Shown here in pieces: positions 54,788 through 57,700 of a stretch of 64,000 bases of DNA. Origin of the DNA: Escherichia coli (GTDB taxonomy: Bacteria; Pseudomonadota; Gammaproteobacteria; Enterobacterales; Enterobacteriaceae). Location of the stretch: assembly GCF_013315695.1 (NCBI RefSeq), contig NZ_CP054353.1. One strand, written 5' to 3'. Position 1 is the stretch's first letter, and each line of letters starts with the position of its first letter. The position numbers are program-made.

Positions 54788-57700
54788 TTAAACAAAAAAA
54801 CGAAGCAAGCATACGCCTGATGGCGGTCCAAAAAAAAGAGTCATCTTGCCTAAGAGTATTGGCAGGATGGTGAGATTGAGCGACAATCGAGTTACACCGT
54901 CGCTTAAAGTGACGGCATAATAATAAAAATATGAAATTCCTCTTTGACGGGCCAATAGCGATATTGGCCATTTTTTTAGCGCAACATCTGCGGCAAATTC
55001 CCTTCTCCATACAGGTGTAGTGCACCGACCGCGACCACATATCGCCCCGGCGGCATGGCGCGTAATTTATCCCGCCAGGCGAGATTTCGCTGATGCATCA
55101 GCACATCGTACAGCGACTGACTGAACGTATTGGGCAGCGTTATATCATTATTTTGCGGCGGTGCATTCAGCCACCAGCTCATCATTTGTTGCAGCAACCG
55201 TGCATTGGTGTGCCAGTGGGTCAGCGTATCGTCCAGCAGTGCCAGTCCGTTGTCAGGGAGCTGGAGCAACATGGCAATCTGGTTTTCTGCCCCTTCCAGT
55301 TCAATCACGGGTTTATGTTGTTGCTTCGCCGCCTGCAATAGCTGGTAATCGATACCGTATTCTGCCCGCAGCCCCAGTTTTTGTGCCTGCCTCGCCTGAA
55401 GAACCATCGCGATTTGCCACAGCGGTTGGGTAGAAAAGAGTGAGGTAGAAATGCCCATCTCCTGGCTAATGTGCTGCAGGTTTTGGAGTTGCTCCTCGCT
55501 AATGCGCTCTTCCAGTGCCTCGCAGGCAGGCAAATTGGCAAAAGGCGTATCGCTGGTGGAAACATCCGCCTCGACGATCAGCGCATCGGCGTTTTTGAGC
55601 TTTTTGAGCAAACGGGTGGGCAGGGGAGCCATATCGTGGCTACCCATATGAATACTGCCGAGCAGATGAAAATGGCGATTGCCGGGAAGAGAGATATCGA
55701 TAGCAGGCCAGGTGTAATGATTACCGCGCAGCGCGGCCCAAAGCGTTTTTACCCGGTACAACAGATCCATACGACCTCCCTTTGTGAAATATCATGCTAG
55801 CGCGCGGGGAGGGATGGCGCAAATGGAGTTATGAGGCTTGTTCAGTGGTAGCTTAAATATGATCGAAAAATTGTTTTTGCTTTGAAACGAAAGACTGCAC
55901 GGGTGTTGGTGGCGTCAAAATCGCCGAGGCGTTCCCTGAAGGCCGGGGCAGCCCACATGGATGTGGGCTGAGGGCGCGTTTTACAGGGATAATGAGATGG
56001 ACGCTCCAGATTTTACGGTATCAAAGTACCAGACTGGATCGTTGCAATACGTCCTGAAAAATTAGGAGCGTCCACATGAAAGTATCAACTCTTGGTATCG
56101 ACCTGGCAAAGAACGTTTTTCAGCTTCATGGTGTCGATCATGAAGGCCATACTATTTTGCGTAAAAAGCTCACCCGGGCTAAGTTTGTTCAGTTTGTGAT
56201 TCAACTGGAACCTTGTCTGATTGGCATGGAAGCCTGCTCATCCAGTCATTATTTTGCGCGATTATTCACCCGCTATGGTCATGAGGTAAAACTCATACCT
56301 CCGCAGTATGTGAAGCCTTATGTGAAAACGAACAAGACGGATGCAGCAGATGCTGAAGCAATCTGCGAAGCGGTAACCCGTCCGAATATGCGTTTTGTTC
56401 AGATAAAAACCGAAGAGCAGCAGGCCGTTTTAGCGTTACACACTGAACGGGGAATACTTATCCGTGAGCGGATTGCCTGTGCCAATAGTTTAAGAGCCAC
56501 ACTTGCTGAGTTTGGTATTACGATTGCGGCCGGACAAAGCCATTTAACACGTGAGCTGCCAGCCATTCTGGAGGATGGCGAAAATGGTTTATCTCCCTTT
56601 GTCAGAACCAGCATCTACAGACAGTCTAAACATATCCGGGAACTTGAAGAACAAGTTAAACAGGTAGAAGAAGCTCTGGCCTCCTGGTATAGAACGCAGG
56701 AAGCCTGCCAGAGAATGGCCAAGATCCCGGGGGTTGGCATGCTAACGGCCACTTATGTGGTAGCAGCAGTGGGTAATGCCCGACAATTCAGTACCGCAAA
56801 GCAGTTCGCTTCATGGCTGGGGCTGACACCAAAGGAACATTCCAGCGGCGGGAAACAGCAACTGGGAGGGATCAGCAAACGTGGAGATGGATATTTCCGA
56901 TACCTGCTGGTTCACGGCGCACGCGCACTTACCGCCTGGGTCAACCGAAACGGCGCGGTTGAGGAGAATTCCTGGCTTCAGGGACTCCTTGAGCGGAAGC
57001 ACTACAATGTAGCTGTTGTCGCCATGGCGGCAAAAACAGCGAGGATCATGTGGTCAATGTTGTCACACAATACTGAATATCAACCTCGGCAGCTCGCCTG
57101 ACACAAGGTCAGTCAATCTGACGAGGTGCTGAAAAAAAGTTAACGTCCTGGTAGGTGCAGGTGACTTCAGAAGATGGCAAAACAGGTAAGACCGCAGGCA
57201 GGATACACCGAGAGGTAACAAGGGCAAGTTAGCCCGTAGAGGATGATTGGTACCTGCCTGGCGGATTTCATCATGGTTCGGGATAAAAATCCCATCAGAA
57301 ACCGGATATATGGCTGCACCTACCCGTTTTATTACATAACTGAAGAAAGCATTGCATTCCGGGAGCGTCCATATATGTTACCTCGCGCCCGACCCGGTAG
57401 CCGCAAGGGATAAGCCGAGGGTACCGCGCAGCGGCGATTTTGTTCGCCAGAGCCCGGGGGTGCAGGGGGCGGCGGCGATTGGCCGCCCCCTGCGCGCTCC
57501 TTGCGCCAGTCACTTTATATGGCATGACTCATAAAAGGAGCGCAACAAGAACTGGATCTCACAAACGCATTAAGTAAATACCAATCACTCTTTCGGTTTA
57601 AACCTCAGCAACCGGTTGGCGTTACTCACTACGGTAATCGACGAGAGCGCCATTGCCGCTCCGGCAACCACCGGGTTAAGCAGCGTACCGGTGAACGGCC

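What the first reader, a model, noticed from the sequence alone, without database searches (positions are those of the whole stretch)
55985..57390. IS110-family (IS1111-like) element between ybaP and copA, in the slot that holds ybaQ in K-12
A 341-aa ORF (56076..57101) has the hallmarks of IS110/IS1111 DEDD transposases: N-terminal GIDLAK, a GMEAC glutamate, a D-rich TDAADAEA segment and a C-terminal HSSGGK...SKRGDGYFRYLLVHGA region. It is flanked by about 90 bp of 5' and about 280 bp of 3' non-coding sequence and lacks the terminal inverted repeats of DDE insertion sequences. Members of this family are reported to be RNA-guided recombinases (bridge RNA / seekRNA), and IS1111-type members carry the guide RNA in the 3' flank, which matches the long structured region seen here. 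No ybaQ-like reading frame is present between ybaP and copA.
Basis: partly seen in the sequence, partly recalled or inferred. Interest (0 to 1): 0.72.

Follow-up and report, generated by a model that had tools for sequence, protein, structure and literature searches.

The report
ISEc81, an RNA-guided insertion sequence
This is an intact copy of the already catalogued E. coli insertion sequence ISEc81 (IS1111 branch of the IS110 family), carrying its own guide RNA downstream of the transposase gene and sitting in the loop of a repeated hairpin element between ybaP and copA; it is ordinary and already annotated.

Summary
The 341-aa ORF is at 56076..57101 and is a clear IS110-family transposase (NCBIfam 359 bits, cut-off 140). 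It differs at 4 of 341 residues from the ISfinder element ISEc81.

Empty-site comparisons set the ends at 55991..57374 (1384 bp). A 2-bp core AT lies on both sides, there is no target duplication, and the 11-bp inverted repeats are subterminal.

The 3' non-coding region holds a two-loop bridge/seekRNA at 57182..57321. A covariance model built only from 25 distant relatives hits it at 97.5 bits. Across relatives, 20 of its 26 pairs show compensatory changes. One loop carries a 9-nt exact complement of the right flank and a weaker match to the left flank. The other loop matches the element's own ends.

Joining the ends would create a TTGCAT-16-TATAAT promoter.

The target is the apical loop of hairpin 2 of a ~271-bp repeat that resembles the orphan TwoAYGGAY RNA motif.

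The insertion did not displace ybaQ. 347 of 5,426 complete E. coli genomes have the same ybaQ-less allele without the element, and 9 have it occupied.

Novelty is low: the element, family and mechanism are published, and RefSeq already calls the gene an RNA-guided transposase.

The parts
55894..55990 (+). Left half of the ~271-bp target repeat (TwoAYGGAY-like). Hairpin 1 is GCCCAC-ATGGAT-GTGGGC at 55951-55968. The left arm of hairpin 2 starts at 55972, and its loop CAGGGAT lies at 55984-55990.
   Evidence: Matches the K-12 lysO-aqpZ intergenic region (L004 5016-5112) at 98%. The uninterrupted repeat aligns end to end with Rfam RF01731 at 30.2-30.6 bits, E 0.007, below the gathering score of 43.
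55989..55990 (+). Core dinucleotide AT, left copy. It is the only sequence shared by both junctions.
   Evidence: The empty site reads CAGGGAT|GTTACC with a single AT.
55991..57374 (+). ISEc81 isoform, 1384 bp.
   Evidence: Empty-site alignments. The same 1384-bp unit is found at lysO-aqpZ and in metagenome contigs.
55997..56007 (+). Left subterminal inverted repeat ATGGACGCTCC. It begins 6 nt inside the left end, after AATGAG.
   Evidence: Perfect reverse complement of 57362-57372. An ATGGAC/ATGGTC-type inverted repeat sits at the same position in relatives.
55998..56074 (+). 5' UTR hairpin. The left inverted repeat pairs with a third copy of the repeat (GGAGCGTCCA, 56065-56074) that contains the Shine-Dalgarno GGAG.
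   Evidence: Minimum free energy -30.2 kcal/mol, z -4.2, 0 of 200 shuffles as stable. A copy of at least 8 nt lies at the same place in 14 of 46 relatives.
56076..57101 (+). tnp, 341 aa. DEDD (RuvC-like) domain plus a C-terminal domain with G249-L-x-P252-x4-S257-G258.
57182..57321 (+). Bridge RNA / long seekRNA with two internal loops.
   Evidence: Model R1, built from 25 relatives without this sequence, scores 97.5 bits, E 6.9e-23, full length. All 26 consensus pairs form in this copy. Covariation is reported.
57195..57260 (+). Target-binding loop. It is built from P1 57195-57202/57253-57260, P2 57207-57209/57249-57251, and the hairpin P3 57222-57225/57232-57235.
57212..57220 (+). Guide for the right flank: GAGGUAACA. 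It is the exact complement of the top strand TGTTACCTC at 57376-57384.
   Evidence: An anchored match of at least 9 nt occurred in only 2 of 2064 mismatched element/flank pairs.
57237..57244 (+). Guide strand for the left flank: UAGAGGAU. Only GGAU is identical to the flank CAGGGAT. It carries one extra nucleotide (A 57240) relative to all relatives.
57261..57317 (+). Donor-binding loop. It is built from P4 57261-57263/57315-57317, P5 57275-57278/57300-57303, and P6 57280-57284/57289-57293. AUUUCAU (57265-57271) pairs with the left end ATGAGAT through one G-U pair. AUAUAUG (57306-57312) equals the right end CC-ATATATG.
57352..57357 (+). -35 box TTGCAT of the promoter that forms only when the ends are joined. 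The -10 TATAAT is made of T 57374, the core AT and AAT 55991-55993, with a 16-nt spacer.
   Evidence: TTGGCA/TTGCAA is conserved at this position in the alignment of relatives.
57362..57372 (+). Right subterminal inverted repeat GGAGCGTCCAT. It ends 2 nt inside the right end.
57375..57376 (+). Core dinucleotide AT, right copy.
   Evidence: One independent copy has AC here (L091).
57377..57551 (+). Right half of the target repeat: the right arm of hairpin 2 (GTTACCTCGCGCCC), the closing stem, and a G+C-rich hairpin at about 57459-57494.
   Evidence: Matches K-12 L004 5111-5286 at 93%. Rfam alignment.

Best explanation
Window 55991..57374 is an intact copy of ISEc81. ISEc81 is an insertion sequence of the IS1111 branch of the IS110 family. 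It encodes a DEDD recombinase and, in its 273-nt 3' non-coding region, a two-loop bridge RNA (long seekRNA).

Shown here from sequence and comparison:
- The exact ends, the single shared AT core, and the absence of a target duplication.
- The subterminal inverted repeats.
- A conserved RNA fold with strong covariation.
- One loop whose 5' strand is a 9-nt exact complement of the right flank and whose 3' strand partly repeats the left flank.
- A second loop whose strands match the element's own left and right ends.
- A strong promoter (TTGCAT-16-TATAAT) that exists only when the two ends are joined.
- A 5' UTR hairpin that buries the ribosome-binding site.

Inferred from published work on relatives (ISEc11, ISPa11, ISKpn4, IS621):
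- The element excises as a circle.
- The junction promoter then drives the transposase and the RNA.
- The RNA is bound by the transposase and pairs with both strands of target and donor.
- Recombination at the AT core inserts the circle without duplication.

The natural target is the apical loop (CAGGGAT|GTTACCTC) of hairpin 2 of a TwoAYGGAY-like repeat present 2-8 times per E. coli genome.
For: Protein:
- NF033542 scores 359 bits against a cut-off of 140.
- Pfam DEDD_Tnp_IS110 and Transposase_20 both match.
- 337 of 341 residues are identical to ISEc81 as printed in the supplement of PMC11187229.
- RefSeq annotates the same protein (WP_000868863.1) at this locus as 'IS110 family RNA-guided transposase'.

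Ends:
- The occupied lysO-aqpZ site (L002) compared with K-12 (L004) gives a 1384-bp insert plus a 2-bp overlap.
- The reconstructed empty ybaP-copA site exists at 100% identity in strain 2020CK-00188, between ybaP and copA.

RNA:
- In 46 unique relatives, an anchored right-flank guide of at least 7 nt plus a left-flank guide of at least 5 nt occurs in 24. The same test on mismatched element/flank pairs gives 4 of 2064.
- The consensus structure has 26 pairs, 20 with compensatory changes.
- 93% of cells are paired, against 31-42% when partners are slid. There are 155 double-change cells against 13-28, and 0 of 500 shuffles reach the observed values.
- A model built without the window sequence hits 57182-57321 at 97.5 bits, E 6.9e-23. 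The next best hit in the 64 kb scores 10.6 bits.
- The donor-loop 3' strand matches its own right end by 7.4 nt on average, against 3.9 nt for other elements' right ends.

Expression:
- A junction promoter with an exact TATAAT forms in 20 of 46 relatives, and with a relaxed -10 in 33 of 46.
- No sigma-70-like promoter lies on the + strand in the integrated copy.
- The 5' hairpin folds at -30.2 kcal/mol, z -4.2.

Literature:
- The seekRNA is essential and programmable in IS1111-type elements, with the top-strand match 5' of the bottom-strand match (PMC11187229).
- Bridge RNAs were predicted in the right end of 93% of ISfinder IS1111 elements (PMC11208160).
Against: - Nothing here shows that the RNA is made, that this copy moves, or that a circle forms.
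- The left-flank guide is poor. Only GGAU (4 nt, or 5 counting the next G) matches CAGGGAT, whereas relatives show 5-9 nt. Yet CAGGGAT or CAAGGAT is found at every independent left junction seen, including one outside the repeat family. Part of left-side recognition is therefore unexplained, unless A 57240 bulges out.
- The donor-loop 5' strand does not covary measurably with the left end, because left ends are too conserved (5.8 against 5.3 nt).
- The 9 genomes carrying this insertion may descend from a single event.
- Rfam 15 has no family that matches the RNA, so there is no curated model to confirm it.
Confidence: 0.9

Rival explanations
1. The element is ISEc81, but target choice is made mainly by the protein. 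The transposase would recognise the DNA hairpin and the AYGGAY-like loop of the repeat, perhaps through the same surface that reads the ATGGAC at the start of its own inverted repeats. The RNA would contribute little.
For: - The left-flank guide matches the target by only 4-5 nt.
- Every left junction seen ends in CAGGGAT or CAAGGAT.
- The target is a hairpin loop.
- The subterminal repeats begin with ATGGAC, which itself fits AYGGAY.
Against: - The 9-nt exact complement of the right flank sits at the family-conserved guide position.
- In relatives with unrelated targets, both guide strands change with the flanks: 24 of 46 against 4 of 2064.
- Experiments on four IS1111-type elements show that the RNA is essential and reprogrammable (PMC11187229).
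Confidence: 0.07
2. The copy is an immobile relic, fixed in one lineage. Its conserved 3' structure would no longer serve transposition.
For: - Only 9 of 5,426 complete genomes have it at this site.
- No internal promoter is detected.
- The ribosome-binding site is sequestered.
- The left-flank guide has a 1-nt insertion relative to all relatives.
Against: - The ORF is full length, and the same protein accession (WP_000868863.1) is annotated at the lysO-aqpZ copy.
- Both ends, both inverted repeats, all 26 RNA pairs and the junction promoter halves are intact.
- The RNA region is identical in the independent copies compared: L002, the same-site copy in another strain (L003), and L091.
- 173 genomes carry the element. 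At least three repeat contexts are seen: ybaP-copA, lysO-aqpZ and a yohP-side flank.
- A missing internal promoter and a buried ribosome-binding site are the expected resting state of this family.
Confidence: 0.03

Closest known systems
ISEc81 (ISfinder entry; IS110 family, IS1111 group)
   Same: The transposase has the same length and 337 of 341 identical residues. The host is also E. coli.
   Different: Four substitutions: A91T, S155N, W288R and E297K. The ISfinder DNA sequence and its recorded ends were not available here, so nucleotide identity and end positions could not be compared. I found no published description of its target or RNA. The three papers in the library that name it only list it in mobile-element inventories.
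ISEc11 / ISPa11 / ISKpn4 seekRNA systems (Siddiquee et al. 2024, PMC11187229)
   Same: - Subterminal inverted repeats with a 6-7-nt left extension.
- A long non-coding region downstream of tnp.
- The guide for the top strand lies 5' of the guide for the bottom strand, and their targets overlap at the insertion point.
- No target duplication.
- A promoter forms at the circle junction.
- Targets are often hairpins (REP, attC).
- The sizes fit the reported ~82-nt and ~154-nt RNAs. Here the first loop with its conserved 5' leader spans about 81 nt (57182-57262), and both loops span about 140 nt.
   Different: The target is different: the loop of a TwoAYGGAY-like repeat. The transposase is only about 30-45% identical to those studied (identity table in the supplement). 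The left-flank guide is unusually poor and one nucleotide longer than in relatives. There are no experiments on ISEc81.
IS621 / ISCro4 bridge recombinases (PDB 8wt6, 9t56; Durrant et al. 2024, PMC11208160)
   Same: The RNA has two internal loops, one for the target and one for the donor. Each loop reads both strands around a 2-nt core. The protein has a DEDD domain plus a C-terminal domain with a serine-glycine motif.
   Different: In IS621 the RNA lies in the left end and the strand order of the guides is reversed. The inverted repeats there are 2-3 bp rather than 11 bp. Protein similarity is detectable only in the C-terminal domain (E 1e-7 to 1e-8).
TwoAYGGAY RNA motif (Rfam RF01731; Weinberg et al. 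2010, PMC2864571). This concerns the target, not the element.
   Same: The uninterrupted repeat aligns to the whole model (positions 1-168). It has two hairpins inside a closing stem, loop 1 is AUGGAU, and it is multi-copy in gamma-proteobacteria. The original alignment includes loops reading CAGGGAU and CAGGGAC.
   Different: It scores 30.2-30.6 bits against a gathering score of 43. Loop 2 is AGGGAU, with G where the name requires a pyrimidine. The E. coli repeat unit is longer, at about 271 bp.

Membership tests
IS110 family, IS1111 group | N-terminal DEDD (RuvC-like) transposase domain | tested here: met
   Pfam PF01548 matches residues 6-146, E 1e-14. D9, E52, D89 and D92 are invariant in alignment A1.
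IS110 family, IS1111 group | C-terminal PF02371 domain with the GL-P----S(T)G motif | tested here: met
   PF02371 matches residues 211-289, E 4e-24. The sequence reads G249-L250-T-P252-KEHS-S257-G258. S257-G258 align with the S-G of ISCro4.
IS110 family, IS1111 group | Curated NCBIfam model NF033542 scored above its cut-off | tested here: met
   359 bits against 140.
IS110 family, IS1111 group | Subterminal inverted repeats of 7-17 bp | tested here: met
   An 11-bp perfect pair at 55997-56007 and 57362-57372, lying 6 nt and 2 nt inside the ends. Homologous repeats sit at the same offsets in relatives.
IS110 family, IS1111 group | Long non-coding region downstream of tnp, short one upstream | tested here: met
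   273 nt against 85 nt.
IS110 family, IS1111 group | Sequence-specific, oriented insertion without target-site duplication | tested here: met
   Empty and filled sites differ by 1384 bp plus one shared AT. Every right junction recovered reads GTTACCTC, and every left junction seen ends in CAGGGAT or CAAGGAT.
IS1111-type bridge RNA / seekRNA | Conserved two-loop RNA fold in the right end | tested here: met
   A model from 25 relatives, built without this sequence, scores 97.5 bits, E 6.9e-23. Covariation is reported.
IS1111-type bridge RNA / seekRNA | Guide complementary to the top strand of the target (right flank), lying 5' of the other guide | tested here: met
   GAGGUAACA at 57212-57220 matches 9 of 9.
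IS1111-type bridge RNA / seekRNA | Guide matching the bottom strand of the target (left flank) | tested here: inconclusive
   Only GGAU (and the next G) of UAGAGGAUG matches CAGGGAT|G. Six of seven would match if A 57240 bulges out.
IS1111-type bridge RNA / seekRNA | Second loop matching the element's own ends | tested here: met
   AUAUAUG equals the right end. AUUUCAU pairs with the left end through one G-U pair. The right-end strand covaries across relatives (7.4 against 3.9 nt); the left-end strand does not covary measurably.
IS1111-type bridge RNA / seekRNA | RNA is expressed, bound by the transposase and required for transposition | not testable with these tools
   This needs RNA-seq, co-purification and transposition assays.
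IS110 family, IS1111 group | Circular intermediate with a promoter formed at the junction | tested here: inconclusive
   The two promoter halves are present and would give TTGCAT-16-TATAAT. Circle formation itself cannot be tested here.
ISEc81 (same element by the ISfinder convention, recalled from memory: over 95% protein identity) | Transposase more than 95% identical | tested here: met
   98.8%. DNA identity to the ISfinder entry was not tested.
TwoAYGGAY RNA (RF01731), for the target repeat | Score at or above the Rfam gathering threshold | tested here: not met
   30.2 and 30.6 bits against 43, E 0.007-0.008, with full-length alignment.
TwoAYGGAY RNA (RF01731), for the target repeat | Two hairpins with AYGGAY in the terminal loops inside a closing stem | tested here: inconclusive
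   Loop 1 AUGGAU fits. Loop 2 AGGGAU has G at the Y position, but the original alignment contains the same variant.

The most novel reading that the evidence does not exclude
ISEc81 homes specifically into the apical loop of the second hairpin of TwoAYGGAY-class repeats. That would make this orphan RNA/DNA motif, whose function has been unknown since 2010, the natural landing pad of an RNA-guided recombinase. ISEc81 would do this with a left-flank guide that pairs only through a one-nucleotide bulge, or with help from the protein. Such tolerance has not been described for bridge or seekRNAs.
Probability: 0.4. Interest if true: 0.35.

Novelty: already known. Interest (0 to 1): 0.2.

Why it matters
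For annotation, it matters little. The element is in ISfinder, RefSeq already labels the gene an RNA-guided transposase, and the mechanism is published for relatives.

Three by-products may be useful.
1. Exact ends, core, target and RNA coordinates for ISEc81. I did not find these described in the searched literature.
2. A compact natural data set of 46 relatives in which both guide strands, and the right-end donor strand, change with the DNA they read. It could serve to design IS1111-type recombinases.
3. The link between an RNA-guided insertion sequence and the TwoAYGGAY-like repeats. This gives a handle on what those repeats are, and shows that they are polymorphic insertion hot spots in E. 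coli intergenic regions.

Tried and rejected
- Rfam 15, searched permissively over 55700-57700, has no family for the RNA. The only hit was a chance miRNA match, E 0.36.
ISYen1-like elements (68%) were not recovered, so guide changes between close relatives could not be examined.
- A tblastn search of plasmids found almost only distant IS4321/IS5075-type relatives. Only one record fell in the 60-80% identity band.
- The metagenome scan with the left end gave 11 loci, but most were cut inside the element. Only one new right junction was obtained (L091).
- One apparent 'reprogrammed guide' in L090 turned out to be an IS3-family end inserted inside the guide.
- I first took CGTTTTA (57325-57331) for the left-flank guide, as the longest left-flank match. 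I rejected it because it lies outside the conserved fold and at the wrong distance.
- The idea that the element deleted ybaQ is rejected by the empty allele.
- A literature search for a legacy name of the E. coli repeat (RSA, boxC and similar) found nothing usable.
- An early version of the junction-promoter script read alignment rows instead of loci. Its output is discarded, and one search replaces it.
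Full report
**Observation.** It scores 359 bits against NCBIfam NF033542, 'IS110 family RNA-guided transposase', whose cut-off is 140. It carries both Pfam domains of the family: DEDD_Tnp_IS110 at residues 6-146 and Transposase_20 at residues 211-289. The window is E. coli. The interval 55771-57584 is 100% identical to three UK bloodstream isolates, where RefSeq annotates the same protein, WP_000868863.1, as 'IS110 family RNA-guided transposase' between ybaP and copA.

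**Ends.** A second copy lies between lysO and aqpZ in strain SCU-109. Aligning that locus with the K-12 lysO-aqpZ intergenic region gives two blocks that overlap by 2 bp. The same comparison with the window places the breaks at 55990 and 57375. The insert is therefore 55991..57374, 1384 bp. The dinucleotide AT is present at both junctions and once in the empty site, which reads CAGGGAT|GTTACC. There is no target duplication. Perfect 11-bp inverted repeats lie 6 nt inside the left end (ATGGACGCTCC, 55997-56007) and 2 nt inside the right end (GGAGCGTCCAT, 57362-57372). Each occurs once in the window.

**Identity.** The supplement of the seekRNA paper (PMC11187229) prints the ISfinder transposases. 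ISEc81 differs from this protein at 4 of 341 positions (98.8% identity), and ISYen1 is 68% identical. This is an isoform of a catalogued element. The only papers in the library that name ISEc81 list it in mobile-element inventories. By sequence, the nearest solved structures are ISCro4 and IS621, with similarity only in the C-terminal domain.

**Where it sits, and ybaQ.** K-12 homology stops at 55842 and resumes at 57589. K-12 has 727 bp in between, holding ybaQ and three REP units. In the window, that interval is a different allele. It consists of 51 bp and 37 bp of unique sequence around a ~271-bp repeat (55894-55990 plus 57377-57551), and the repeat is what the element interrupts. The reconstructed uninterrupted allele is present in 347 of 5,426 complete E. 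coli genomes. One carries it at 100% identity with ybaP and copA on either side and no ybaQ. Nine genomes carry the element at this site, and 173 carry it somewhere. The element therefore did not remove ybaQ.

**The target repeat.** The repeat occurs 2-8 times per genome. Uninterrupted copies align over the whole length of the Rfam model TwoAYGGAY (RF01731). They score 30.2-30.6 bits with E 0.007, which is below the gathering score of 43. In that alignment hairpin 1 has the loop AUGGAU and hairpin 2 has the loop CAGGGAU-G. The insertion point is exactly in the second loop. Loops reading CAGGGAU or CAGGGAC occur in the original TwoAYGGAY alignment, and that motif has no known function.

Metagenome copies show the same left junction in three kinds of context:
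- E. coli-type repeats.
- A diverged repeat with compensating hairpin changes (L088).
- One flank that does not look like the repeat at all (L090).

All of these left flanks end in CAGGGAT or CAAGGAT.

**The RNA.** A scan of species-representative genomes returned 80 relatives at 46-55% protein identity. They share the layout of this element: an ATGGAC/ATGGTC-type inverted repeat about 80 nt before the start codon and about 260-300 nt after the stop codon.

I then asked two questions for each of 46 unique elements. Does the 3' non-coding region contain the reverse complement of the right flank, starting 2-4 nt after the CCAT of the right repeat? And, 8-45 nt further on, does it contain a copy of the left flank ending about 6 nt before the left repeat? 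Both were present (at least 7 nt and at least 5 nt) in 24 of 46 elements. The same test gave 4 of 2064 when flanks were swapped between elements. A short hairpin always separates the two guides.

An alignment of 26 such regions gives a consensus fold of 26 pairs in 7 helices, and 20 pairs show compensatory changes. In that fold 93% of cells are paired, against 31-42% when partners are slid by 1-3 columns. There are 155 double-change cells against 13-28, and no shuffle out of 500 reaches the observed values. All 26 pairs form in the window copy.

To avoid circularity I rebuilt the alignment without the window sequence and made a covariance model from it. That model hits 57182-57321 (+) at 97.5 bits, E 6.9e-23, over its full length. 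The next best hit in the 64 kb scores 10.6 bits.

**Anatomy in the window.** The first internal loop spans 57195-57260.
- Its 5' strand carries GAGGUAACA (57212-57220), an exact complement of TGTTACCTC. That is the last core base plus 8 nt of the right flank.
- The hairpin GGGC-AAGUUA-GCCC follows.
- Its 3' strand is UAGAGGAU-GAU (57237-57247).

This order, with the top-strand match 5' of the bottom-strand match and the two overlapping at the insertion point, is the order reported for IS1111-type seekRNAs.

The second internal loop spans 57261-57317.
- It carries AUUUCAU (57265-57271), which pairs with the left end ATGAGAT through one G-U pair.
- It also carries AUAUAUG (57306-57312), identical to the right end CC-ATATATG.

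Across relatives the second of these strands follows its own right end (GTATG, CTATG, GCATG, ATACG, AAATGA and others). The mean match is 7.4 nt against 3.9 nt for other elements' right ends. The match often runs 1-4 nt into the right flank, which recalls the 'handshake' bases of IS621; this is an inference from memory of that work. The first strand shows no measurable covariation, because left ends are nearly invariant.

**A weak spot.** The left-flank guide matches the flank CAGGGAT only over GGAU. Both the alignment and the model show that this strand is one nucleotide longer here than in every relative, the extra base being A 57240. If that A bulges out, 6 of 7 positions pair. The RNA region is identical in the three other full copies examined, so this is a property of ISEc81 and not damage to this copy. 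Whether pairing is bulged, or the protein or the hairpin helps on the left side, is open.

**Expression logic.** The integrated copy has no sigma-70-like promoter on the + strand. Joining the right end, the core and the left end gives TTGCAT, a 16-nt spacer, then TATAAT. The same construction gives an exact TATAAT in 20 of 46 relatives and a relaxed -10 in 33 of 46, and the -35 box is conserved in the alignment. A third copy of the inverted repeat (GGAGCGTCCA, 56065-56074) overlaps the Shine-Dalgarno sequence. It pairs with the left repeat in a hairpin of -30.2 kcal/mol, z -4.2. A copy of at least 8 nt lies at that position in 14 of 46 relatives. My reading is that transcripts entering from outside are poorly translated. 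Transcripts from the junction promoter, which should start at about the first bases of the left repeat, would form a weaker hairpin. This reading is inferred.

**Mechanism, and what rests on what.** The following are shown here: identity, ends, core, target, RNA fold, guide matches and promoter halves. The following are taken from experiments on relatives (PMC11187229; PMC11208160): circle formation, junction-driven expression, binding of the RNA by the transposase, pairing with both strands of target and donor, and recombination at the core. Nothing was measured for ISEc81 itself.

**Comparison and novelty.** The element is a member of the IS1111 group on every feature I could test, and it is ISEc81 by protein identity. 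Bridge RNAs were already predicted in bulk for 93% of ISfinder IS1111 elements. What I did not find described is its target, its RNA coordinates and the bulged or imperfect left guide. I score it as already known, with low interest.

Noticed in passing
window 55894-55990 + 57377-57551; L004 5016-5286; L005 1645-1784: A ~271-bp intergenic repeat is present 2-8 times per E. coli genome. It aligns end to end with the orphan Rfam motif TwoAYGGAY, but below threshold (30 bits against 43). It replaces ybaQ plus REP units in a minority allele of the ybaP-copA spacer, seen in 347 empty and 9 occupied genomes out of 5,426.
   Followed up: partly
window 55998-56007 with 56065-56074: A third copy of the inverted repeat overlaps the Shine-Dalgarno sequence and start codon of tnp. 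It forms a -30 kcal/mol hairpin with the left repeat, which is probably a block on translation of read-through transcripts. A copy of at least 8 nt lies at the same place in 14 of 46 relatives.
   Followed up: partly
window 57240: The left-flank guide strand of the ISEc81 RNA has one extra nucleotide compared with all 25 aligned relatives, and it matches its conserved target CAGGGAT poorly unless that base bulges out.
   Followed up: partly
L091 (metagenome contig OBUQ01001149.1), right junction: An otherwise identical copy has AT at the left junction but AC at the right junction. The target there probably read CAGGGAC-GTTACC. This suggests that the two core copies derive from different partners, or from an unrepaired heteroduplex.
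   Followed up: no
L097 (NZ_CP029747.1 1352980-1359894) and hits H15-H30; L090 positions 1-72: In many genomes the ISEc81 copy next to lysO carries an IS3-family insertion. Its right flank there is yohP/mdtQ instead of aqpZ, which implies a rearrangement between two repeat or IS copies. In L090 an IS3-family end cuts ISEc81 inside the right-flank guide.
   Followed up: partly
L092, L094, L095, L096 (metagenome contigs): A related element shares only the first 193 bp (96%) and bases 1011-1359 (94%) with ISEc81. In L094 these two pieces lie in an unexpected order. A group II intron domain hit (RF02012, 38.8 bits) lies nearby in L092.
   Followed up: no
relatives L006-L085, right ends: The donor-loop 3' strand of the RNA often matches not only the element's right end but also 1-4 nt of the adjacent flank (for example L045, L054, L066). 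This resembles the handshake guides described for IS621.
   Followed up: no
window 4995-5090 (-), 23525-23621 (+), 40423-40487 (+), 54894-54977 (+): Ordinary Rfam hits above threshold: sraA, the small SRP RNA, the dnaX frameshift element and sroB (ChiX). They fit the K-12 gene order around ushA-ybaK-ybaP.
   Followed up: no
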